A DNA stretch of 23,413 nt from a virus (Duplodnaviria > Heunggongvirae > Uroviricota > Caudoviricetes). The stretch lies in the IMG/VR virus record IMGVR_UViG_2740892229_000010. One strand, given 5' to 3'. Positions 7,387-15,985 of the stretch are shown here, piece by piece. The notes under the pieces are model-generated. The model saw only the letters and a program-made list of their open reading frames with translations. It made no database searches and was not told where the DNA came from. The stretch's first letter is position 1; each line of letters begins with the position of its first letter. The position numbers and the translations under genes were made by a program.

Positions 7387-9368
7387 AACGAACGCCTGTC
7401 CTGATTGATGTGAACGGCGTTCCGCTTCGTGAGAGTCTCAGCTACAACGGGGGCGGTGCAGGATTTGGCGGGCAAATGGCGGAGTGGTTGCCACCGGCGC
7501 AGAGTGCCGATGCAGCCCTGCTGCCTGCGTTGCGTCTGGGGAATGCCCGGGCAGATGATCTGGTGCGCAATAACGGGATAGCGGCCAATGCGGTGGCCCT
7601 GCATAAGGATCATATTGTCGGGCATATGTTTCTGATCAGCTACCGTCCGAACTGGCGCTGGCTGGGGATGCGGGAGACTGCGGCAAAAAGTTTTGTCGAT
7701 GAGGTGGAGGCGGCCTGGTCGGAATACGCCGAAGGGATGTTTGGCGAGATCGACGTGGAAGAGAAACGCACGTTTACGGAATTTATTCGTGAAGGTGTGG
7801 GCGTTCATGCGTTTAACGGCGAAATCTTTGTGCAGCCGGTCTGGGATACGGAGAGCACGCAACTGTTTCGTACGCGTTTTAAAGCCGTGAGTCCGAAACG
7901 GGTGGACACGCCAGGACACGGTATGGGGAACCGTTTTCTGCGGGCCGGGGTGGAGGTCGATCGATATGGCCGTGCCGTTGCGTACCATATCTGTGAGGAT
8001 GATTTTCCGTTCTCTGGTAGTGGACGATGGGAACGGATCCCGCGTGAACTACCCACCGGGCGTCCGGCCATGCTGCATATTTTCGAGCCGGTGGAGGACG
8101 GGCAGACCCGTNNNNNNNNNNTGTGGAGGTCGATCGATATGGTCGTGCCGTTGCGTACCATATCTGTGAGGATGATTTTCCGTTCTCCGGGAGTGGACGA
8201 TGGGAACGGATCCCGCGTGAACTTCCCACCGGGCGTCCGGCCATGCTGCATATTTTCGAGCCGGTGGAGGACGGGCAGACCCGTGGGGCTAATCAGTTTT
8301 ACAGCGTCATGGAACGGCTGAAGATGCTGGATTCCCTGCAGGCAACACAGCTTCAGTCGGCCATTGTGAAAGCCATGTATGCAGCGACGATTGAAAGTGA
8401 ACTTGATACCGAAAAGGCCTTTGAATATATCGCCGGTGCGCCGCAGGGGCAGAAGGATAATCCGCTTATTAATATTCTGGATAAGTTCTCCACCTGGTAT
8501 GACACGAATAGCGTGACGCTGGGTGGTGTCAAAATTCCGCACCTTTTCCCCGGTGATGATCTGAAACTTCAGACCGCGCAGGATTCAGACAATGGATTTT
8601 CGGCGCTTGAACAGGCGCTGCTGCGGTATATCGCCNNNNNNNNNNGCAGACTGCGCAGGATTCAGACAATGGATTTTCGGCGCTTGAACAGGCGCTGCTG
8701 CGGTATATCGCCGCCGGTCTTGGCGTTTCCTACGAACAGTTGTCCCGTGATTACTCGAAGGTCAGTTATTCAAGTGCCCGCGCATCCGCCAATGAGTCGT
8801 GGCGCTATTTTATGGGGCGGCGAAAATTTATTGCGTCCCGGCTGGCCACGCAGATGTTTTCCTGCTGGCTGGAAGAGGCANNNNNNNNNNGGATTACTCG
8901 AAGGTCAGTTATTCAAGTGCCCGCGCCTCCGCCAATGAGTCGTGGCGCTATTTTATGGGACGACGAAAATTTATTGCGTCCCGGCTGGCCACGCAGATGT
9001 TTTCCTGCTGGCTGGAAGAGGCACTTCTTCGGGGGATTATTCGTCCGCCACGGGCACGTTTTGATTTTTATCAGGCGCGATCAGCCTGGTCACGGGCTGA
9101 GTGGATTGGAGCCGGAAGAATGGCCATTGACGGGCTCAAGGAGGTTCAGGAATCAGTGATGCGCATTGAGGCCGGACTGAGCACGTATGAGAAAGAGCTG
9201 GCGCTGATGGGTGAGGATTATCAGGACATTTTCCGCCAGCAGGTCAGGGAATCTGCAGAGCGGGAAAAAGCCGGACTCTCACGTCCGGTGTGGATAGCGC
9301 AGGCGTATCAGCAGAAGATAGCGGAGAGTCGCAGGCCGGAAGAGGAGACAACACCACGTGAGACGTAA
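7383..9368 (+). CDS. B: Portal protein (gpB-like), composite across three N runs
   Basis: Collinear with lambda gpB from MKRTPVLIDVNGVP… through GANQFYSVMERLKMLDSLQATQLQSAIVKAMYAATIESELDT and SARASANESWRYFMGRRKFIASR to the C-terminus. N runs at 8112-8121, 8636-8645 and 8881-8890 are each followed by an allelic repeat of the preceding segment, so the coordinates overstate the gene length. Confidence 0.9.
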
Positions 9369-9385
9369 TCTTTCANNNNNNNNNN

Positions 9386-9541
9386 CGAGGATTATCAGGA
9401 CATTTTCCGCCAGCAGGTCAGGGAATCTGCTGAGCGACAAAAAGCCGGACTCTCACGTCCGGTGTGGATAGCGCAGGCGTATGAGCAGCAGATAGCGGAG
9501 AGTCGCAGGCCGGAAGAGGAGACAACACCACGTGAGACGTA
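9386..9541 (+). other. Allelic second copy of the portal 3' end, carrying the C start
   Basis: After N 9376-9385 the last 50 codons of the portal recur with substitutions (for example AESAEREKAG versus AESAERQKAG, and QQKIAE versus EQQIAE). Confidence 0.6.
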
Positions 9542-11493
9542 ATCTTTCACACATTATTGCCGCAGCATTCAATGAACCGCTGCTTCTGGAGCCCGCCTAT
9601 GCGCGGGTTTTCTTTTGCGCGCTCGGGCGCGAGATGGGGGCATCAAGTCTTTCGGTACCACAACAGCAGGTACAGTTTGATGCTCCCGGAATGCTGGCTG
9701 AAACGGACGAGTACATGGCCGGAGGTAAACGACCGGCCCGTGTTTACCGGGTGGTGAACGGTATTGCGGTACTGCCGGTGACCGGCACGCTGGTGCACCG
9801 GCTGGGGGGTATGCGGCCATTTTCCGGAATGACAGGCTATGACGGCATTGTCGCCTGTCTTCAGCAGGCAATGGCGGATAGCCAGGTGCGGGGCGTACTG
9901 CTGGACATTGACAGTCCGGGCGGGCAGGCCGCCGGCGCGTTTGACTGCGCTGACANNNNNNNNNNTGATATCACGCTGATTTACTCAGGGGCGCACAAGG
10001 TGGATGGCAATCAGTTTGAAGCGTTGCCGGCAGAGGTTCGCCAGGACATGCAACAGCGCATTGATGCGGCGCGCCGGATGTTTGCTGAAAAAGTAGCGAT
10101 GTATACCGGTCTGTCTGTTGATGCTGTCACGGGAACAGAGGCCGCCGTTTTTGAAGGTCAGTCCGGCATTGAGGCCGGGCTGGCGGATGAATTAATCAAT
10201 GCGTCGGATGCCATCAGTGTGATGGCCACGGCGCTGAACAGTAATGTCAGAGGAGNNNNNNNNNNGATGCGGCCATTTTCCGGAATGACTGGCTATGACG
10301 GCATTGTCGCCTGTCTTCAGCAGGCAATGGCAGATAGCCAGGTGCGGGGCATACTGCTGGACATTGACAGTCCGGGCGGGCAGGCCGCCGGCGCGTTTGA
10401 CTGCGCTGACATGATTTACCGCCTCCGTCAGCAGAAGCCGGTCTGGGCACTGTGCAATGACACGGCCTGTTCTGCAGCCATGCTGCTGGCGTCGGCCTGC
10501 TCCCGACGGCTGGTTACCCAGACATCCCGTATCGGCTCCATTGGCGTGATGATGAGCCATGTCAGCTATGCCGGTCATCTGGCGCAGGCCGGTGTGGATA
10601 TCACGCTGATTTACTCAGGGGCGCACAAGGTGGATGGCAATCAGTTTGAAGCCTTACCGGCAGAGGTTCGCCAGGACATGCAGCAGCGCATTGATGCGGC
10701 GCGCCGGATGTTTGCCGAAAAAGTGGCCATGTTTACCGGTCTGTCTGTTGATGCCGTCACGGGAACAGAGGCCGCCGTTTTTGAAGGTCAGTCCGGCATT
10801 GATGCCGGGCTGGCGGATGAATTAGTCAATGCGTCGGATGCCATCAGTGTGATGGCCACGGCGCTGAACAGTAATGTCAGAGGAGGCACTATGCCGCAAT
10901 TAACTGCAACGGAAGCCGCCGCGCAGGAGAACCAGCGAGTGATGGGGATCCTGACATGCCAGGAAGCGAAAGGACGTGAACAGCTTGCCACGATGCTGGC
11001 AGGACAACAGGGCATGAGCGTTGAACAGGCCCGGGCGATTCTGGCCGCGGCGGCACCGCAGCAGCCGGTGGCATCCACGCAGAGTGAAGCCGATCGCATT
11101 ATGGCGTGTGAAGAAGCGAACGGTCGTGAACAACTGGCGGCAACGCTGGCGGCGATGCCGGAGATGACGGTGGAAAAAGCCCGCCCGATCCTGGCTGCTT
11201 CACCGCAGGCGGATGCCGGACCCTCACTCCGTGATCAGATCATGGCACTGGATGAGGCAAAAGGGGCTGAGGCGCAGGCTGAACAGCTGGCTGCCTGCCC
11301 GGGAATGACTGTGGAGAGCGCCCGGGCTGTGCTGGCTGCGGGATCAGGTAAGGCAGAACCGGTCTCTGCATCCACAACCGCCCTGTTTGAACGCATCATG
11401 GCGAACCATTCACCGGCAGCGGTACAGGGTGGCGTGCCACAGACGTCAGCAGACGGTGATGCGGACGTGAAAATGCTCATGGCTATGCCATGA
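9532..11493 (+). CDS. C: Head maturation protease / scaffold (gpC-like, S49 peptidase), composite across two N runs
   Basis: FNEPLLLEPAYARVFFCAL, GIAVLPVTGTLVHR, SGMTGYDGIVACLQQA, LLDIDSPGGQAAGAFDCAD and KPVWALCNDTACSAAMLLASACSRRLVTQTSRIGSIGVMMSH match lambda gpC. Segment 9966-10255 is allelic to about 10600-10875, and 10266-10400 is allelic to 9820-9955. Confidence 0.9.
   Translation: MRRNLSHIIAAAFNEPLLLEPAYARVFFCALGREMGASSLSVPQQQVQFDAPGMLAETDEYMAGGKRPARVYRVVNGIAVLPVTGTLVHRLGGMRPFSGMTGYDGIVACLQQAMADSQVRGVLLDIDSPGGQAAGAFDCADXXXXDITLIYSGAHKVDGNQFEALPAEVRQDMQQRIDAARRMFAEKVAMYTGLSVDAVTGTEAAVFEGQSGIEAGLADELINASDAISVMATALNSNVRGXXXXMRPFSGMTGYDGIVACLQQAMADSQVRGILLDIDSPGGQAAGAFDCADMIYRLRQQKPVWALCNDTACSAAMLLASACSRRLVTQTSRIGSIGVMMSHVSYAGHLAQAGVDITLIYSGAHKVDGNQFEALPAEVRQDMQQRIDAARRMFAEKVAMFTGLSVDAVTGTEAAVFEGQSGIDAGLADELVNASDAISVMATALNSNVRGGTMPQLTATEAAAQENQRVMGILTCQEAKGREQLATMLAGQQGMSVEQARAILAAAAPQQPVASTQSEADRIMACEEANGREQLAATLAAMPEMTVEKARPILAASPQADAGPSLRDQIMALDEAKGAEAQAEQLAACPGMTVESARAVLAAGSGKAEPVSASTTALFERIMANHSPAAVQGGVPQTSADGDADVKMLMAMP
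10891..11493 (+). CDS. Nu3: Nu3-like scaffolding protein from an in-frame internal start within C
   Basis: AGGAGG 6 nt upstream of ATG 10891, in the C frame, as for lambda Nu3. The product contains three tandem copies of a roughly 40-aa motif (IMGIL.C.EA.GREQLA..LA….M.VE.AR.ILAA). Confidence 0.5.
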   Translation: MPQLTATEAAAQENQRVMGILTCQEAKGREQLATMLAGQQGMSVEQARAILAAAAPQQPVASTQSEADRIMACEEANGREQLAATLAAMPEMTVEKARPILAASPQADAGPSLRDQIMALDEAKGAEAQAEQLAACPGMTVESARAVLAAGSGKAEPVSASTTALFERIMANHSPAAVQGGVPQTSADGDADVKMLMAMP

Positions 11494-11529
11494 AGTCAGT
11501 GCTGACCATCAACAGGAGGTTTTTACAAT

Positions 11530-11877
11530 ATGGTAACGAAAACCATCACTGAACAGCGTGCGGAAGTACGTATTTTTGCCGGTAATGATCCGGCTCATAC
11601 CGCCACAGGCAGCAGCGGGATTTCCTCGGCAACACCGGCACTGACGCCCCTGATGCTGGATGAAGCTACCGGGAAACTGGTGGTCTGGGACGGACAGAAA
11701 GCCGGTAGTGCGGTTGGCATACTGGTACTGCCGCTTGAAGGCACAGAGACGGTACTGACGTATTACAAGTCGGGGACCTTTGCGACGGAGGCAATCCGCT
11801 GGCCTGACAGTGTGGATGAACACAAAAAGGCAAATGCCTTTGCCGGCAGTGCCCTGAGTCACGCGGCGCTGCCGTAA
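11530..11877 (+). CDS. D: Head decoration protein (gpD-like)
   Basis: GNDPAHTATGSSG…TPLMLDEATGKLVVWDG…AVGILVLP…YYKSGTF…KKANAFAGSA matches lambda gpD; AGGAGG upstream. Confidence 0.9.
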   Translation: MVTKTITEQRAEVRIFAGNDPAHTATGSSGISSATPALTPLMLDEATGKLVVWDGQKAGSAVGILVLPLEGTETVLTYYKSGTFATEAIRWPDSVDEHKKANAFAGSALSHAALP

Positions 11878-11934
11878 CACGTTATCAGGCCACCGCGGTG
11901 GCCTGACTGATTTCTGAATGAAAGGAACTGATTT

Positions 11935-12936
11935 ATGGGATTGTTTACGACCCGCCAGTTACTCGGTTATACCGAACAAAAAGTGAAATTTCGTGCGCTG
12001 TTTCTGGAGCTGTTTTTCCGCCGTACGGTGAATTTCCATACCGAAGAGGTGATGCTGGACAAAATTACCGGAAAAACGCCGGTGGCGGCCTATGTCTCCC
12101 CGGTTGTTGAAGGAAAAGTGCTGCGTCATCGCGGTGGTGAAACCCGCGTGTTACGTCCGGGCTACGTCAAGCCGAAACACGAATTTAATTACCAGCAGGC
12201 GGTTGAGCGTCTTCCCGGTGAAGATCCGGCTCAACTGAACGACCCGGCCTACCGTCGTCTGCGTATCATCACCGATAACCTCAAACAGGAAGAGCATGCC
12301 ATTGTCCAGGTGGAAGAAATGCAGGCGGTGAATGCCGTGCTGTATGGCAAATACACCATGGAAGGGGATCAGTTTGATACTGTCGAGGTGGATTTTGGAC
12401 GCTCTGAAGGAAATAACATTGAGCAGGCCGACGGTAAAAAATGGTCTGAGCAGGACCGTGATACGTTTGATCCGACGCATGATATTGACCTCTACTGCGA
12501 TCAGGCCAGCGGTCTTGTGAATATTGCCATTATGGACGGTACTGTCTGGCGTCTGCTGAATGGTTTTAAGCTGTTCCGCGAAAAACTGGATACCCGTCGC
12601 GGCTCAAATTCACAACTCGAAACGGCAGTGAAAGACCTGGGGGCGGTGGTGTCCTTCAAGGGGTATTACGGCGATCTGGCCATTGTGGTGGCGAAAACGT
12701 CTTATGTGGCAGAGGACGGTACCGAAAAACGTTATCTGCCGGAGGGCACACTGGTCCTGGGGAATACGTCAGCAGAGGGCATTCGTTGCTATGGTGCCAT
12801 TCAGGATGCGCAGGCGTTGTCCGAAGGTGNNNNNNNNNNTGTGGGCGATCCGGCCCGTGAATTCACCATGACGCAGTCCGCACCGCTGATGGTGCTGCCG
12901 GATCCGGATGAGTTTGTGGTGGTACAGGTGAAATAA
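11935..12936 (+). CDS. E: Major capsid protein (gpE-like), allele 1, with an N run near the 3' end
   Basis: PGYVKPKHE, VEEMQAVNAVLYGKYTMEGDQF, KLDTRRGSNSQLETAVKDLG and GDPAREFTMTQSAPLMVLPDPDEFVVVQV match lambda gpE. N 12830-12839 deletes a few codons. Confidence 0.95.
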   Translation: MGLFTTRQLLGYTEQKVKFRALFLELFFRRTVNFHTEEVMLDKITGKTPVAAYVSPVVEGKVLRHRGGETRVLRPGYVKPKHEFNYQQAVERLPGEDPAQLNDPAYRRLRIITDNLKQEEHAIVQVEEMQAVNAVLYGKYTMEGDQFDTVEVDFGRSEGNNIEQADGKKWSEQDRDTFDPTHDIDLYCDQASGLVNIAIMDGTVWRLLNGFKLFREKLDTRRGSNSQLETAVKDLGAVVSFKGYYGDLAIVVAKTSYVAEDGTEKRYLPEGTLVLGNTSAEGIRCYGAIQDAQALSEGXXXXVGDPAREFTMTQSAPLMVLPDPDEFVVVQVK

Positions 12937-12944
12937 TCCGTGAG

Positions 12945-12974
12945 CGGGGGCGAAATGCCCCCGTGTCTTTTTTC
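12945..12974 (+). terminator. Intrinsic terminator immediately after the major capsid gene
   Basis: Perfect 7-bp GC stem cgggggc/gcccccg with loop gaaat, then tgtcttttttc; 8 bp after the E stop and 14 bp before the FI ATG. Confidence 0.55.
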
Positions 12975-12987
12975 ACAGGAGGCTGAG

Positions 12988-13371
12988 ATGGCAACAAAAG
13001 AAGAAAATCTGAATCGTCTTCGTCAACTGGCTGGCCTGCTGGGGCGCGAGGCGGATATGTCGGGGAGTGCTGCGGATATTGCGCAACGTGTGTCTGAGTG
13101 GGAAGAGGAGCTTGCTGCTTCCCGGGAGGGCATTATGCCTGGTGATGAGAGCGGGCCTGAGCAAAATCACACAGACGATGGTGAGCAGTTGCACAACACT
13201 GATGCTACGGATGATGTTAAAGCGGTCCGTGTGCGGAAATGCCTGCATGTGATGGGGTATTGCCCGGAGACAGGCCGTCCCGTTGAACTGACGTACCGGG
13301 GCATGCGTGTTCTGGTGCCATCACCACTGGCGACAGCCATGATACAGCACGGAACGGCTGAGCATGCGTGA
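12988..13371 (+). CDS. FI: DNA packaging protein FI-like, allele 1
   Basis: ATG 12988 with AGGAGG upstream (MATKEENLNRLRQLAGLLGREADMSGSAADIAQRVSEWEEEL…). Position after E and loose similarity to the lambda gpFI N-terminus; the C-terminal half is poorly conserved. Confidence 0.65.
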   Translation: MATKEENLNRLRQLAGLLGREADMSGSAADIAQRVSEWEEELAASREGIMPGDESGPEQNHTDDGEQLHNTDATDDVKAVRVRKCLHVMGYCPETGRPVELTYRGMRVLVPSPLATAMIQHGTAEHA

Positions 13372-13717
13372 TTTTCAGAATGCCTTTGATGCTGCCCTTG
13401 CCGGGGTGGACAGCACGATTGTTGAAGTGATGGGGCTCTGTGCGCAGTTCACCTCGGGGGCACAGTGTGGCAGCGAAGTTCAGGGGGTTTTTGACGATCC
13501 GGAGTCGCTGGGGTTTGCCGGTAGCGGGGTCCGTATTGAAGGAAGCTGCCCGTCATTATTTGTACGGACGGATACGGTTCGTGCTGTGCGGCGTGGTGAC
13601 ACGCTGACCATTAATGGTGAGACATTCTGGGTGGATCGTGTTTCTCCGGATGACGGGGGCAGTTGTTATCTCTGGCTCAACCGTGGGCAACCACCGGCAG
13701 TTAACCGGCGACGATAA
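13364..13717 (+). CDS. FII: Head-tail connector FII, allele 1
   Basis: FDAALAGVDSTI, GVFDDPESL, PSLFVRTDTVRAVRRGDTLTI and FWVDRVSPDDGGSCYLWLNRGQPPAVNRRR match lambda gpFII. Confidence 0.9.
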   Translation: MRDFQNAFDAALAGVDSTIVEVMGLCAQFTSGAQCGSEVQGVFDDPESLGFAGSGVRIEGSCPSLFVRTDTVRAVRRGDTLTINGETFWVDRVSPDDGGSCYLWLNRGQPPAVNRRR

Positions 13718-13731
13718 ACGCAGGGTGAATT

Positions 13732-13914
13732 ATGGCGATAAAAGGGCTTGATCAGGCGATTGAAAATCTGAGCCGGGTTCGTAAAAACGCCATTCCGTCG
13801 GCTTCAGCAATGGCTATTAACCGCGTGGCTACAACGGCGATTAATCAGTCTTCATCACAGGTTGCCCGGGAGACCAGGGTGAGCCGGAAACTGGTAAAGG
13901 AACGGTCCAGACTG
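13732..13914 (+). CDS. Z: Tail protein Z, allele 1, 5' fragment truncated by an N run
   Basis: MAIKGLDQAIENLSRVRKNAIPSASAMAINRVATTAINQSSSQVARETRVSRKLVKERSRL matches the lambda gpZ N-terminus; it ends at N 13915-13924. Confidence 0.7.
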
Positions 13915-13924
13915 NNNNNNNNNN

Positions 13925-14654
13925 GCTGAACGACCCGGCCTACCGTCGTCTGCGTATCATCACTGATAACCTCAAACAGGAAGAGCACGCCATTGTCCAG
14001 GTGGAAGAAATGCAGGCGGTGAATGCCGTGCTGTATGGCAAATACACGATGGAAGGAGACCAGTTCGAGAAAATTGAGGTCGATTTTGGCAGGTCGACGA
14101 AGAATAACATCACTCAGGGTAGTGGTAAGGAGTGGTCAAAACAGGATCGTGACACGTTCGATCCTACACATGATCTTGACCTCTACTGCGACCAGGCCAG
14201 CGGTCTTGTGAATATTGCCATTATGGACGGTACCGTCTGGCGTCTGCTGAATGGCTTTAAATTGTTCCGCGAAAAACTGGATACCCGTCGCGGTTCAAAT
14301 TCTCAACTCGAAACAGCGGTGAAAGACCTGGGCGCGGTGGTGTCCTTCAAAGGGTATTACGGCGATCTGGCCATTGTGGTGGCAAAAACGTCTTATGTGG
14401 CAGAGGACGGTACCGAAAAACGTTATCTGCCTGAGGGCTCGCTGGTCCTGGGGAATACGGCAGCAGAGGGCATTCGTTGCTATGGTGCCATTCAGGATGC
14501 GCAGGCGTTGTCCGAAGGTGTGGTGGCCTCTTCCCGTTATCCGAAACACTGGCTGACGGTGGGGGATCCCGCCCGTGAATTTACCATGACGCAGTCCGCG
14601 CCGCTGATGGTGTTGCCGGACCCGGATGAGTTTGTGGTGGTACAGGTGAAATAA
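13925..14654 (+). CDS. E: Major capsid protein (gpE-like), allele 2, missing its 5' third
   Basis: Begins mid-gene after the N run (…LNDPAYRRLRIITDNLKQEEH…) and runs to the same C-terminus as allele 1. Near-identical to allele 1 except for a substitution cluster around DQFEKIEVDFGRSTKNNITQGSGKEWSKQ. Confidence 0.85.
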
Positions 14655-14662
14655 TCCGTGAG

Positions 14663-14692
14663 CGGGGGCGAAATGCCCCCGTGTCTTTTTTC
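14663..14692 (+). terminator. Intrinsic terminator after the major capsid gene, allele 2 copy
   Basis: Same cgggggc-gaaat-gcccccg hairpin and T-run as at 12945-12974. Confidence 0.55.
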
Positions 14693-14705
14693 ACAGGGGG
14701 ATGAT

Positions 14706-15080
14706 ATGGCAACGAAAGAGCAAAATCTGAAACGGCTTGATGAACTGGCCCTGATTCTGGGGCGTGAGCCGGATATATCCGGGAGTGCCGCAGAGATAGC
14801 GCAGCGGGTGGCAGAATGGGAAGAGGAAATGCAGTCATCCGGCGATGATGTACAGGTTATGAATATGGATATCCGGGAGAGGGAAAACGCGGCTCATGAT
14901 GTTCGTGAGGAAACATCCGGCGCGTTAACGCGCATCAGAGTTCTGACCTGCCTCCATCTCTGTGGCGTTGATGGTGAAACGGGGGAATCCGTTGAGCTTG
15001 CGGATGTTGGTCGGGTGATTCTGATTATGTCCTCAGATGCAAAAACACACGTTGATGGTGGAATGGCTGTTTATGCGTGA
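14706..15080 (+). CDS. FI: DNA packaging protein FI-like, allele 2 (diverged C-terminal half)
   Basis: MATKEQNLKRLDELALILGREPDISGSAAEIAQRVAEWEEEM… has an N-terminus similar to allele 1, but the C-terminal roughly 80 aa are largely different. Confidence 0.65.
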   Translation: MATKEQNLKRLDELALILGREPDISGSAAEIAQRVAEWEEEMQSSGDDVQVMNMDIRERENAAHDVREETSGALTRIRVLTCLHLCGVDGETGESVELADVGRVILIMSSDAKTHVDGGMAVYA

Positions 15081-15426
15081 TTTTCAGAATGCCTTTGATG
15101 CCGCCCTTGCCGGGGTGGACAGTACGATTGTTGAAGTGATGGGCATCAGTGCGCAGTTCACCTCCGGTGCACAGCGTGGCGGCGAAGTTCAGGGGGTTTT
15201 TGACGATCCGGAGTCGCTGGGGTTTGCCAGTAGTGGGATCCGTATTGAAGGAAGCAGCCCGTCATTATTTGTGCGGACGGATACGGTTCGTGCCGTGCGG
15301 CGTGGTGACACGTTGACCATTAATGGTGAGACGTTCTGGGTGGATCGTGTTTCTCCGGATGACGGGGGCAGTTGTTATCTCTGGCTGAACCGTGGGCAAC
15401 CACCCGCAGTTAACCGGCGACGATAA
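15073..15426 (+). CDS. FII: Head-tail connector FII, allele 2
   Basis: Near-identical to the 13364-13717 copy with a few substitutions (for example GISAQFTSGAQRGGEVQ versus GLCAQFTSGAQCGSEVQ). Confidence 0.9.
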   Translation: MRDFQNAFDAALAGVDSTIVEVMGISAQFTSGAQRGGEVQGVFDDPESLGFASSGIRIEGSSPSLFVRTDTVRAVRRGDTLTINGETFWVDRVSPDDGGSCYLWLNRGQPPAVNRRR

Positions 15427-15440
15427 ACGCAGGGTGAATT

Positions 15441-15985
15441 ATGGCGATAAAAGGGCTTGATCAGGNNNNNNNNNNGCGGCTTCAGCAATGGCCATTAACC
15501 GCGTGGCCACAACGGCGATTAATCAGTCTTCGTCACAGGTTGCCCGGGAGACCAGGGTGAGCCGGAAACTGGTAAAGGAACGGTCCAGACTGAAACGGGC
15601 GACGGTCAGAAATCCGAATGCCAGAATTATCGTTAACCGCGGTGATCTCCCTGCTATTAAGCTGGGGATCAGGATGCTTGGTCATCGTCCGAACAGCATA
15701 CTTAAAGCCGGTCAGCATCGTTATCAGCGGGCATTCATCCAGCGATTAAATAATGGGCGCTGGCATGTTATGCAACGTTTGCCAGAAGCCCGGTATGCGA
15801 AGGGCAATGACGATAAAGGAAGGAAAAAGCGTAATCGTCTTCCCATTCAGGTGGTTAAAATTCCGATGGCGGCCCCACTGAAGCAGGCTTTTGATGAGAA
15901 CGTTAACCGTATCCGGCGAGAACGTCTGCCAAAAGAACTGGGCTATGCGTTGAAACAACAACTAAGGATTGTGATAAAGCGATGA
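15441..15985 (+). CDS. Z: Tail protein Z, allele 2, full length apart from an N run
   Basis: ATG 15441, N 15466-15475, then …AINRVATTAINQSSSQVARETRVSRKLVKERSRLKRATVRNPNARIIVNRGDLPAIKLG…RLNNGRWHVMQRL…VVKIPMAAPL…[22 protein letters not shown], matching lambda gpZ. Confidence 0.85.

What the first reader, a model, noticed from the sequence alone, without database searches (positions are those of the whole stretch)
12988..15080. Localised mosaicism: FI alleles differ sharply in the C-terminal half while flanking E and FII are near-identical
The two FI copies share the N-terminal roughly 45 aa but the remaining roughly 80 aa are largely different, while the capsid gene upstream and FII downstream differ by only a few residues. 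In lambda, FI links terminase to the prohead. A swapped domain inside an otherwise conserved module suggests recombination at sub-gene scale or diversifying selection on the capsid-contacting part.
Basis: seen in the sequence. Interest (0 to 1): 0.45.

Follow-up and report, generated by a model that had tools for sequence, protein, structure and literature searches.

The report
Two FI packaging-chaperone alleles, scaffold-interleaved prophages
The "two FI copies" are the same DNA-packaging chaperone gene from two different phage-21-like prophages whose contigs were stitched side by side; the sharp difference between them is real but is ordinary lambdoid mosaicism, with one useful extra: each FI type travels with a matching, oppositely charged patch on the capsid protein.

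Summary
The sequence observation holds. FI-1 (12988-13371) and FI-2 (14706-15080) share 31/42 N-terminal residues but only 19/48 in the C-terminal domain. FII differs at 7/117 residues and E at 13/228.

The "two copies" are not a duplication. The window is 19 contigs joined by 10-N spacers, and it interleaves at least two phage-21-like prophages. In complete E. coli genomes the two alleles sit hundreds of kb apart.

Both proteins are full-length Pfam Packaging_FI. Both model as two helices, a disordered acidic linker and a C-domain whose best PDB match is lambda gpFI-C (2LSM). So this is the same domain at low identity, not a foreign domain.

Divergence is strongly non-uniform. Synonymous difference (pS) is 0.54-0.66 in FI, against 0.03-0.17 in most of E and in FII. 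dN/dS is below 1 between and within allele classes, so this is old allelic mosaicism, not demonstrated diversifying selection. N- and C-domain trees disagree, and 21-N/lambda-C chimeras exist, so intragenic recombination has occurred.

New lead: 11 of the 13 E differences lie in a patch at aa 148-184. It is also saturated at synonymous sites, is in strong LD with FI C-domain type, and has complementary charge (r=-0.90, 8 types). It is probably the FI docking site.

The parts
10266..12829 (+). Contig 12 (prophage 1): end of C/Nu3, D (11530-11877), E codons 1-298 (11935-12828)
   Evidence: Bounded by 10-N runs. 100% identical to L001 6400-8963, the type-A prophage of E. coli 2013C-4991.
12367..12495 (+). 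E patch, allele 1 (aa 145-187, DQFDTVEVDFGRSEGNNIEQADGKKWSEQDR...; net charge -5 over aa 145-175)
   Evidence: Carries the acidic 'A' signature that accompanies type-A FI in 59 of 63 loci.
12830..12839 (.). 10-N scaffold spacer; about 37 nt of E is missing here
   Evidence: In L001 the flanking contigs map 37 nt apart.
12840..13914 (+). Contig 13 (prophage 1): E tail (12841-12936), FI-1, FII-1 (13364-13717), Z N-terminus (13732-13914)
   Evidence: 99.5-99.6% identical to complete E. coli genomes annotated 'gpFI: DNA-packaging protein FI'.
12988..13113 (+). FI-1 N-terminal helical domain (aa 1-42)
   Evidence: AF2 helices 4-18 and 28-47. 31/42 identical to FI-2. pS 0.54, pN 0.145.
13114..13215 (+). 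FI-1 acidic disordered linker (aa 43-76, net charge -9)
   Evidence: pLDDT <50 over residues 49-74. Charge. Within-type piN/piS 0.44-0.93.
13216..13371 (+). FI-1 C-terminal domain, type A (aa 77-127, net charge +4), plus stop codon
   Evidence: AF2 fold beta4-alpha-beta. Top PDB hit 2LSM, TM 0.73. Pfam PF14000 matched end to end.
13915..13924 (.). 10-N scaffold spacer between contigs of two different prophages
   Evidence: Left of it is Z codon 61; right of it is E codon 101.
13925..15465 (+). Contig 14 (prophage 2): E codons 101-342 (13926-14654), FI-2, FII-2 (15073-15426), Z start (15441-15465)
   Evidence: 100% identical to L002 9001-10541 and to at least 15 complete E. coli genomes.
14058..14186 (+). 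E patch, allele 2 (aa 145-187, DQFEKIEVDFGRSTKNNITQGSGKEWSKQDR...; net charge 0)
   Evidence: Same patch as phage 21.
14706..14831 (+). FI-2 N-terminal helical domain (aa 1-42)
   Evidence: AF2 helices 4-18 and 28-44.
14832..14924 (+). FI-2 acidic disordered linker (aa 43-73, net charge -5)
   Evidence: pLDDT <50 over residues 46-71. Charge.
14925..15080 (+). FI-2 C-terminal domain, type B, the phage 21 gp8 type (aa 74-124, net charge -3), plus stop codon
   Evidence: Whole protein 99.2% identical to phage 21 gp8. Top PDB hit 2LSM, TM 0.72.
15466..15475 (.). 10-N scaffold spacer
   Evidence: The next contig maps 42 nt further on in L002.

Best explanation
**What the window is (shown).** It is a draft scaffold in which contigs of at least two closely related phage-21-like lambdoid prophages of one E. 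coli-type genome were placed side by side with 10-N spacers. The 'two FI copies' are therefore alleles of one gene, FI. FI is the DNA-packaging chaperone, called gp8 in phage 21. The alleles come from two separate prophages.

**What the alleles are (shown by sequence, models and database).** Both encode the same three-part protein:
- an N-terminal two-helix domain held by purifying selection;
- a disordered acidic linker that drifts almost freely;
- a C-terminal beta-rich domain with the lambda gpFI-C fold.

**How the pattern arose (inferred from dS, LD and incongruent trees).** Homologous recombination among co-resident and incoming lambdoid phages has homogenised the head module to 93-100% identity. 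FI survives as an old allelic cassette, bounded by its own start codon and by the start of FII. Occasional crossovers at the N-domain/linker boundary shuffle N-domains and C-domains.

**Why the alleles persist (inferred, not shown).** The FI C-domain docks on the prohead through a surface patch of capsid protein E, roughly aa 145-187. Each FI C-domain class stays with a matching E patch of complementary charge. Mismatched recombinants would be selected against.
For: **Scaffold, not duplication**
- There are 18 runs of exactly 10 N, and neighbouring contigs overlap at 83-98% identity.
- Contigs 12 and 13 map contiguously to one prophage. Contigs 14, 15 and 17 map to another prophage of E. coli 2013C-4991, 874 kb away. 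Each prophage has a single Nu1-A-W-B-C-D-E-FI-FII-Z module.

**Identity of the genes**
- Pfam PF14000 matches over profile positions 1-130 of 131 for both (E=3.6e-15 and 1.6e-16).
- FI-2 is 99.2% identical to phage 21 gp8. FI-1 is 89.8% identical to FI of the plaque-forming PhiR12 phages.

**Same fold**
- The C-domains are 40% identical (E=2e-9).
- The two AF2 models have the same order of secondary-structure elements.
- 2LSM is the top PDB hit for both (probability 1.00, TM 0.73 and 0.72).

**Mosaic, old alleles**
- The identity plot falls to 45-52% in FI, within flanks of 92-100% apart from a 73% dip inside E.
- pS is 0.54-0.66 in FI and 0.75 in the E patch, against 0.03-0.17 in the flanks.
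- piN/piS is below 1 within every type.

**Intragenic recombination**
- N-domain and C-domain relationships are incongruent.
- Chimeras of a 21-type N-domain with a lambda C-domain carry 21-like A and E upstream and lambda-like FII and Z downstream.

**Coupling of E and FI**
- FI type against E patch signature: 59/63 for A, 76/76 for B, 31/31 for B'.
- r2 with FI type is 0.57-0.76 (maximum 0.97) at E aa 134-183. It is 0.06-0.25 in the 500 nt between the patch and FI, and about 0.1 in FII and Z.
- The independent B-versus-B' contrast peaks in the same E region.
- Net charge of the E patch against the FI C-domain over 8 types gives Pearson r=-0.90 (p=0.002). Outside aa 121-196 no 31-aa window of E exceeds |r|=0.34; the strongest windows (|r| 0.75-0.94) lie within aa 131-191. 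There is no correlation with the FI N-domain or linker.
- Viable phages 21, PhiR12_2 and PhiR5_1 obey the pairing.
- The literature states that gpFI acts through the major head protein.
Against: - Co-adaptation is inferred only from association. Four haplotype classes break the pairing: L017 (type-A FI with a B patch), the L004 type (hybrid patch), and L284 and L286 (lambda-type C-domain with a B patch).
- Strongly divergent blocks resist homologous recombination. An LD island could therefore arise partly without selection.
- The 8 types are not phylogenetically independent; B and B' share a patch.
- Type 5 and Gifsy-1 fit the charge rule poorly.
- I could not place E aa 145-187 on a capsid structure, so surface exposure is not established.
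- The AF2 alignments included lambda-type sequences, which may bias the models towards 2LSM.
- The source genome was not identified. 'Same genome' is inferred from the scaffold.
Confidence: 0.8

Rival explanations
1. A genuine tandem duplication of E'-FI-FII inside one prophage, followed by divergence of the FI paralogues. This is what the first reader's wording implies.
For: In the window as given, the two sets lie about 1.7 kb apart on the same strand.
Against: - Every junction is a 10-N spacer that cuts genes mid-codon.
- The same overlap pattern recurs at all 18 spacers along the window.
- Each contig matches one of two separate single-copy prophage modules at 99.5-100% identity.
- In three complete genomes that carry both alleles, they lie 307-874 kb apart.
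- Synonymous divergence in FI is near saturation while the flanks are at 0.03-0.17. A local duplication cannot produce that.
Confidence: 0.03
2. Diversifying (positive) selection acts on the capsid-contacting C-terminal domain of FI and drives rapid amino-acid change within an otherwise conserved module.
For: - The C-domain is the most divergent folded part (40% identity).
- It is reported to bind the head protein.
- Capsid proteins can be targets of host defence sensors (a different phage system).
Against: - Synonymous sites are as diverged as non-synonymous ones. pS is 0.66 against pN 0.44, and Jukes-Cantor-corrected omega is about 0.43.
- Within each allele class the C-domain is under purifying selection, with piN/piS 0.11-0.27.
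- The variation falls into a few discrete old classes, not a continuum.
Confidence: 0.1
3. The link between the E patch and FI type is a by-product of recombination mechanics. Two highly divergent blocks 550 nt apart act as barriers. Only short conversion tracts shuffle the homologous spacer and flanks, so the blocks stay linked without any functional interaction.
For: - Both blocks have saturated dS and low nt identity: 73% in the patch and about 45-52% in FI.
- Exceptions to the pairing exist and include apparently intact prophages.
Against: - Another divergent block at a similar distance downstream, the Z indel block, shows r2 of 0.25 or less with FI type.
- LD collapses within 50 nt at the FI/FII boundary, so exchanges ending next to FI are frequent.
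- Mechanics alone do not predict the charge complementarity, which is specific to E aa ~131-196 and to the FI C-domain.
- An independent contrast (B against B') maps to the same E residues, 163, 182 and 187.
Confidence: 0.3
4. The whole module is uniformly diverged and FI merely looks different because it is short and poorly constrained.
For: The linker is indeed nearly unconstrained, with piN/piS up to 0.93.
Against: Synonymous divergence varies more than 15-fold along E-FI-FII. The transitions coincide with the FI start codon and the FII start.
Confidence: 0.02

Closest known systems
Bacteriophage lambda gpFI (DNA-packaging chaperone; C-terminal domain structure PDB 2LSM, Popovic et al. 2012, JBC 287:32085)
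   Same: - Same Pfam family, matched end to end.
- Same gene position between E and FII.
- Same architecture: helical N-domain, flexible linker, small beta-rich C-domain.
- The C-domain models superpose on 2LSM.
- Role as read in citing papers: binds the gpE lattice and helps terminase-DNA dock on the prohead.
   Different: - About 21-22% identity to 2LSM in the C-domain.
- Single-sequence searches do not reach 2LSM.
- The N-domain belongs to the 21 type (MATKE...SGSAADIAQRV.EWEEE), which is 52-58% nt identical to lambda's.
- The net charge of the C-domain differs: +4 for type A and -3 for type B, against about -1 for lambda.
Phage 21 gp8 (FI analogue) and the phage 21 head module (genes 1, 2, ... 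shp, 7, 8, 9)
   Same: - FI-2 is 99.2% identical to gp8.
- The E patch of contig 14 (aa 145-175) is identical to phage 21's; within aa 145-187 there is one I/L difference at aa 184.
- The flanking genes match 21-like prophages at 99-100%.
   Different: FI-1 is a different allele class (type A, 43% identical to gp8) sitting in an otherwise 21-like module.
Pervasive mosaicism of lambdoid phages, with junctions at gene boundaries and sometimes at domain boundaries (Juhala et al. 2000, J Mol Biol; recalled from memory, not read here)
   Same: - Sharp identity transitions at the FI start and at the FII start.
- An additional junction at the N-domain/linker boundary in chimeric alleles.
   Different: Here the flanks are nearly identical and one small gene, plus a 40-codon patch of the neighbouring gene, stay divergent. 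This is an 'island' pattern, not a module swap.
The 'EFi domain' of lambda gpE: E mutations that bypass the need for FI (Murialdo & Tzamtzis 1997, Mol Microbiol 24:341; only the title was seen, in reference lists)
   Same: Both point to a discrete region of the major capsid protein that is functionally coupled to FI.
   Different: I could not obtain the paper. I therefore do not know whether the EFi residues coincide with aa 145-187. The evidence here is natural co-variation and charge complementarity, not suppressor genetics.

Membership tests
gpFI / Pfam PF14000 Packaging_FI | Significant full-length match to the family profile | tested here: met
   FI-1: E=3.6e-15, 57 bits, profile positions 1-130 of 131. 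FI-2: E=1.6e-16, 61.4 bits. Gathering cut-off 27 bits.
gpFI / Pfam PF14000 Packaging_FI | Gene located between the major capsid gene E and the head-tail joining gene FII, in a lambda-type head module | tested here: met
   Order D-E-FI-FII-Z in both contig sets and in both reference prophages. FII matches PF05354.
gpFI / Pfam PF14000 Packaging_FI | Two-domain architecture: helical N-domain, flexible linker, folded C-domain with the 2LSM fold | tested here: met
   AF2 gives helices 4-18 and 28-45, a linker with pLDDT <50, and a beta4-alpha-beta C-domain with pLDDT 77-87. 2LSM is the top Foldseek hit for both models, TM 0.72-0.73. These are predicted models, not experimental structures.
gpFI / Pfam PF14000 Packaging_FI | C-domain binds the major head protein and stimulates terminase-prohead docking | not testable with these tools
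   Only indirect evidence: co-variation and charge complementarity with E aa 145-187.
Tandem gene duplication (paralogous FI copies in one element) | Both copies on one uninterrupted DNA molecule | tested here: not met
   10-N spacers at 12830, 13915 and 15466. Genes are truncated at the spacers. The contigs map to two prophages 874 kb apart in a complete genome.
Non-homologous domain replacement (domain swap by a foreign fold) | The C-terminal parts are unrelated in sequence and fold | tested here: not met
   40% identity, E=2e-9. Same predicted fold and same best PDB hit.
Diversifying (positive) selection locus | dN/dS >1 between or within allele classes | tested here: not met
   Between types: pN/pS about 0.68 with saturated dS, Jukes-Cantor-corrected omega 0.43. 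Within types: C-domain piN/piS 0.11-0.27. Site-specific models were not run.
Co-adapted protein-protein interface (FI C-domain with the E patch) | Partner residues co-vary more than linkage alone predicts, and physical contact is demonstrated | tested here: inconclusive
   There is an LD island, with r2 up to 0.97 across a low-LD spacer. Charge anticorrelation is r=-0.90 over 8 types. Exceptions exist, and contact or surface exposure was not tested.

The most novel reading that the evidence does not exclude
FI C-domain classes and a roughly 40-residue patch of the major capsid protein E (aa ~145-187) form co-adapted, electrostatically complementary 'specificity pairs'. Type A pairs a basic FI-C with an acidic patch. 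The phage 21 type pairs an acidic FI-C with a neutral or basic patch. Natural variation would then map the still undefined gpFI docking site on the prohead. It would also explain why FI and this patch remain old allelic islands in a head module otherwise homogenised by recombination among co-resident prophages.
Probability: 0.45. Interest if true: 0.5.

Novelty: already known. Interest (0 to 1): 0.3.

Why it matters
The gene is a known chaperone, annotated in hundreds of genomes. One allele is phage 21 gp8. The pattern is the familiar mosaicism of lambdoid prophages, made to look like a duplication by a scaffolded draft assembly.

Two points are practically useful:
- **A warning.** 10-N scaffolds of multi-prophage E. 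coli genomes produce false 'paralogue' pairs.
- **A testable lead.** The co-varying, charge-complementary patch of E (aa ~145-187) is a candidate docking surface for gpFI on the prohead. How gpFI recognises the shell is still described only in general terms. Allele-swap complementation among phage 21, PhiR12 and PhiR5 would test the lead directly.

Tried and rejected
- **PDB by single sequence.** Searches with either FI found nothing relevant. Only a family profile reached 2LSM, and that profile contains lambda-type sequences, so the hit is partly by construction.
- **Source record.** Exact-pattern scans of genome contigs, one across a spacer junction and one with a 65-mer of the FI-1 linker, both found nothing.
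- **Key papers.** I tried to read Popovic et al. 2012 and Murialdo & Tzamtzis 1997 by DOI, PMC id and PubMed id. Neither is held. A Casjens & Hendrix review was also not held. A search for 'EFi domain' returned only reference lists. One literature search and one paper look-up failed on term length.
- **Capsid domain boundaries.** Open papers did not give gpE domain boundaries that would place aa 145-187 on the capsid.
- **Tandem duplication.** Considered and rejected (see rivals).
- **Strict rule.** 'The C-domain must match the whole of E' was rejected. Chimeric FI with a lambda C-domain works with 21-type E that is only 62% identical to lambda E. This is why attention moved to the patch.
- **Flank comparisons.** The ungapped flank comparisons were out of register because of indels, so I ignored them.
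Full report
**1. What the window is.**
- The 23,413-nt window contains 18 runs of exactly 10 N, which divide it into 19 contigs.
- The end of almost every contig overlaps the start of a later one at 83-98% identity.
- So the apparent duplications along the window (B, C, E-FI-FII, V, G/T, H) all share one cause: contigs from more than one related prophage were laid side by side.
- Contig 12 (10266-12829) is 100% identical to one prophage of E. coli 2013C-4991 (locus L001). Contig 13 (12840-13914) continues 37 nt further on in that same prophage.
- Contig 14 (13925-15465) is 100% identical to a second prophage of the same strain (L002). Contigs 15 and 17 continue in that second prophage.
- In that complete genome the two prophages lie 874 kb apart. 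Each has one Nu1-A-W-B-C-D-E-FI-FII-Z-U-V-G-T-H module.
- Two other complete genomes that carry both alleles have them 307 and 865 kb apart.
- The 'two FI copies' are therefore alleles from two prophages, not paralogues in one element.
- I could not identify the source record.

**2. The observation.**
- FI-1 is 12988-13371 (127 aa) and FI-2 is 14706-15080 (124 aa).
- The first 42 residues are 31/42 identical. The next 31-34 residues cannot be aligned. The last 48 are 19/48 identical.
- FII differs at 7/117 residues.
- E differs at 13 of 228 comparable residues, and 11 of these lie at aa 148-184.
- In 30-nt bins, identity is 87-100% up to the FI start codon, 67-83% over codons 1-40, 33-57% over codons 41-120, and 87-100% again from the FII start.
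- Between the two complete prophages, FI is the deepest trough of the head module (45-52% identity). The flanks are 92-100% identical apart from a second trough of 73% inside E.
It overlooks the E patch, and it is wrong about the physical arrangement.

**3. What the proteins are.**
- Both match Pfam PF14000 (Packaging_FI) from profile position 1 to 130 of 131.
- RefSeq annotates both as 'DNA-packaging protein FI'.
- FI-2 is 99.2% identical to gp8 of phage 21. FI-1 is 89.8% identical to FI of the plaque-forming phages PhiR12_1 to PhiR12_5. Both types therefore work in viable phages.
- AlphaFold2 models of the two show the same layout: helices 4-18 and 28-45, a linker with pLDDT below 50, and a beta-beta-beta-beta-alpha-beta domain with pLDDT around 77-87.
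- The best PDB match of both models is the NMR structure of the lambda gpFI C-terminal domain, 2LSM (probability 1.00, TM 0.73 and 0.72, 21-22% identity).
- The two C-domains align directly at 40% identity (E=2e-9).
- The C-terminal halves are therefore the same domain at low identity, not a swapped foreign domain.
- Caveat: the alignments used for modelling contained lambda-type sequences.

**4. Old alleles, not fast evolution.**
- Synonymous difference (pS) by segment:

| Segment | pS |
|---|---|
| E aa 1-133 | 0.03 |
| E aa 134-190 (patch) | 0.75 |
| E aa 191-342 | 0.17 |
| FI N-domain | 0.54 |
| FI C-domain | 0.66 |
| FII | 0.14 |

- The N-domain looks 'shared' only because purifying selection holds the protein (pN 0.145). 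At the DNA level the whole FI ORF is an old block whose edges coincide with the FI start codon and the FII start.
- Within each allele class piN/piS is 0.11-0.27 for the C-domain, 0.11-0.36 for the N-domain and 0.44-0.93 for the linker.
- Nothing indicates positive selection on the C-domain. The linker is close to neutral.

**5. Recombination inside the gene.**
- A search of public proteins found at least six C-domain classes: A, B, B', a Citrobacter type, a lambda type and a short lambda type. All are joined to the same 21-type N-domain, and clear chimeras exist.
- Among 267 loci from IMG/VR plus the two reference prophages, the combinations are N1+B 97, N1+A 70, lambda-N+lambda-C 66, N1+B' 31, N1+C 2 and N1+lambda-C 1.
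- The N-domain of B' is 92% nt identical to A and 79% to B. Its C-domain is 67% identical to B and 52% to A. The trees are incongruent.
- In the N1+lambda-C chimera, the terminase and capsid genes upstream are 21-like (A 91%, E 95%). FII and Z downstream are lambda-like (96%). The junction between head and tail modules therefore lies inside FI, after about codon 40.
- Such chimeras occur in 19 of 5,426 complete E. coli genomes.
- Sub-gene recombination is thus real in this family. For the particular pair in the window, however, the whole ORF differs.

**6. The E patch.**
- Across 172 loci (63 distinct E proteins), FI C-domain type tracks ten E residues between 148 and 172 almost perfectly.
  - Type A goes with D148 T149 V150 E158 G159 E163 A165 D166 K169 E172.
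  - Types B and B' go with E K I T K T/I G S E K at the same positions.
  - B' is further marked by I163, Y182 and F187.
- Counts: A 59/63 (3 hybrids and 1 with the B patch), B 76/76, B' 31/31.
- On 140 distinct D-to-Z haplotypes, r2 with FI type (A against the rest) varies as follows:

| Region | r2 with FI type |
|---|---|
| E aa 134-183 | 0.57-0.76 (maximum 0.97) |
| The 500 nt between the patch and FI | 0.06-0.25 |
| FI N-domain | 0.30-0.51 |
| Upstream of the patch | 0.14 or less |
| FII, Z, U and V | about 0.1 |

- The independent contrast B against B' peaks in the same part of E.
- Residues of E between the patch and FI occur with both FI types, for example K/Q290, S/A316 and C/R317.
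- Another divergent block at a similar distance downstream, the Z indel block, is not associated with FI type.

**7. Charge complementarity.**
- The type-A C-domain is basic (+4) and its E patch is acidic (-5 over aa 145-175). Type B is acidic (-3) with a neutral patch. Lambda, B' and the Citrobacter type fall in between.
- After four more FI types were fetched, there are 8 classes at 70% identity. Net charge of E aa 145-175 against that of the FI C-domain gives Pearson r=-0.90 (p=0.002) and Spearman rho=-0.86 (p=0.006).
- In a scan of 31-residue windows along E, only windows inside aa ~131-196 reach |r| of 0.67-0.94. Windows between aa 121 and 156 reach 0.49-0.50. Elsewhere |r| is 0.34 or less, although some of those windows vary as much.
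- Patch charge does not correlate with the FI N-domain (r=0.09) or the linker (r=0.22).
- Phages 21, PhiR12_2 and PhiR5_1 show the expected pairs. Gifsy-1 fits poorly.
- Counter-examples: two chimeras with a lambda C-domain have an unmodified B patch. Two others have patches partly converted to the lambda sequence (AGGS/AGGT-EWS).

**8. Interpretation.**
- Shown: the scaffold artefact, the identity of the gene, the common fold (by prediction), the non-uniform and old divergence, purifying selection within classes, intragenic recombination in the family, and the statistical coupling of FI C-domain class with the E patch.
- Inferred: the patch is where the FI C-domain docks on the prohead, and selection against mismatched pairs keeps both blocks as allelic islands while recombination homogenises the rest.
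- This inference fits published statements that gpFI is bound to the gpE lattice and bridges the capsid to the terminase-DNA complex. It also fits the existence of an 'EFi domain' in E defined by FI-bypass mutations, of which I saw only the title.
- The main rival for this last step is mechanical: divergent blocks resist recombination and stay linked by default. I give co-adaptation about 0.45-0.55.

**9. Verdict.**
- The finding is real as a sequence difference and ordinary in kind. It consists of known FI alleles (one is phage 21 gp8) in mosaic lambdoid prophages, presented as 'copies' by a scaffolded draft.
'Swapped domain' and 'diversifying selection' are not supported.
- The E-patch/FI coupling is the only part that might be new, and it needs structural and genetic tests.

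Noticed in passing
window 1-23413 (spacers at 411, 941, 1801, 2783, 4270, 8112, 8636, 8881, 9376, 9956, 10256, 12830, 13915, 15466, 16571, 18350, 21355, 22986): The window has 18 spacers of exactly 10 N. Neighbouring contigs overlap at 83-98% identity. Every apparent internal repeat (B, C, E-FI-FII, V, G/T, H regions) is an interleaving artefact. For example, the 653-aa 'ORF' at 9532-11493 is a chimera of three contigs of the C/Nu3 gene.
   Followed up: yes
window 12367-12495 and 14058-14186 (E aa 145-187): A 40-codon patch of the major capsid gene has saturated synonymous divergence (pS 0.75) inside an otherwise 93-100% identical gene. It co-varies with FI C-domain class and has complementary net charge.
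   Followed up: yes
L163 10001-10399; L284, L285 and L286 about 9001-9400 (E. coli SE11, M8, CFSAN029787, M19): These are chimeric FI genes with a phage-21-type N-domain fused to a lambda-type linker and C-domain. In L163, the one case where all flanking genes were compared, the junction between a 21-like head/terminase module and a lambda-like FII/Z/tail module lies inside FI. Such chimeras are present in only 19 of 5,426 complete E. coli genomes.
   Followed up: partly
L001 10191-10373 versus L002 (gene Z; window Z pieces 13732-13914 and 15488-15985): There is a 42-nt indel and a roughly 60%-identity block inside tail gene Z between the two prophages. It is not in linkage disequilibrium with FI type and served here as a distance-matched control.
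   Followed up: partly
L001 6123-7627 and 9525-9877; L002 11492-11886 and 16718-17460: In strain 2013C-4991 the type-A prophage has frameshifted C and FII genes. The type-B prophage has frameshifted V and K genes. Both reference prophages are annotated as defective in at least one structural gene.
   Followed up: no
L002 18225-18752: A sodC (Cu/Zn superoxide dismutase) gene lies on the opposite strand between tail genes I and J of the type-B prophage. It is a cargo gene inside the tail module. It lies outside the part of the module covered by the window.
   Followed up: no
L001 14500-17363 versus L002 (end of H, M, L, K, I): Identity between the two prophages drops from about 100% to 59-89% from the last 500 nt of H through I. 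This is a second, much larger mosaic boundary in the tail-tip genes.
   Followed up: no
window 12940-12987 and 14658-14705: The mechanical ORFs extend 16 codons upstream of the FI start from a GTG (MSGGEMPPCLFSQ...). Some database entries annotate an 11-codon N-terminal extension (138 aa, for example P0008), while RefSeq starts at MATKE. This is probably start-codon mis-annotation and not a real extension.
   Followed up: no
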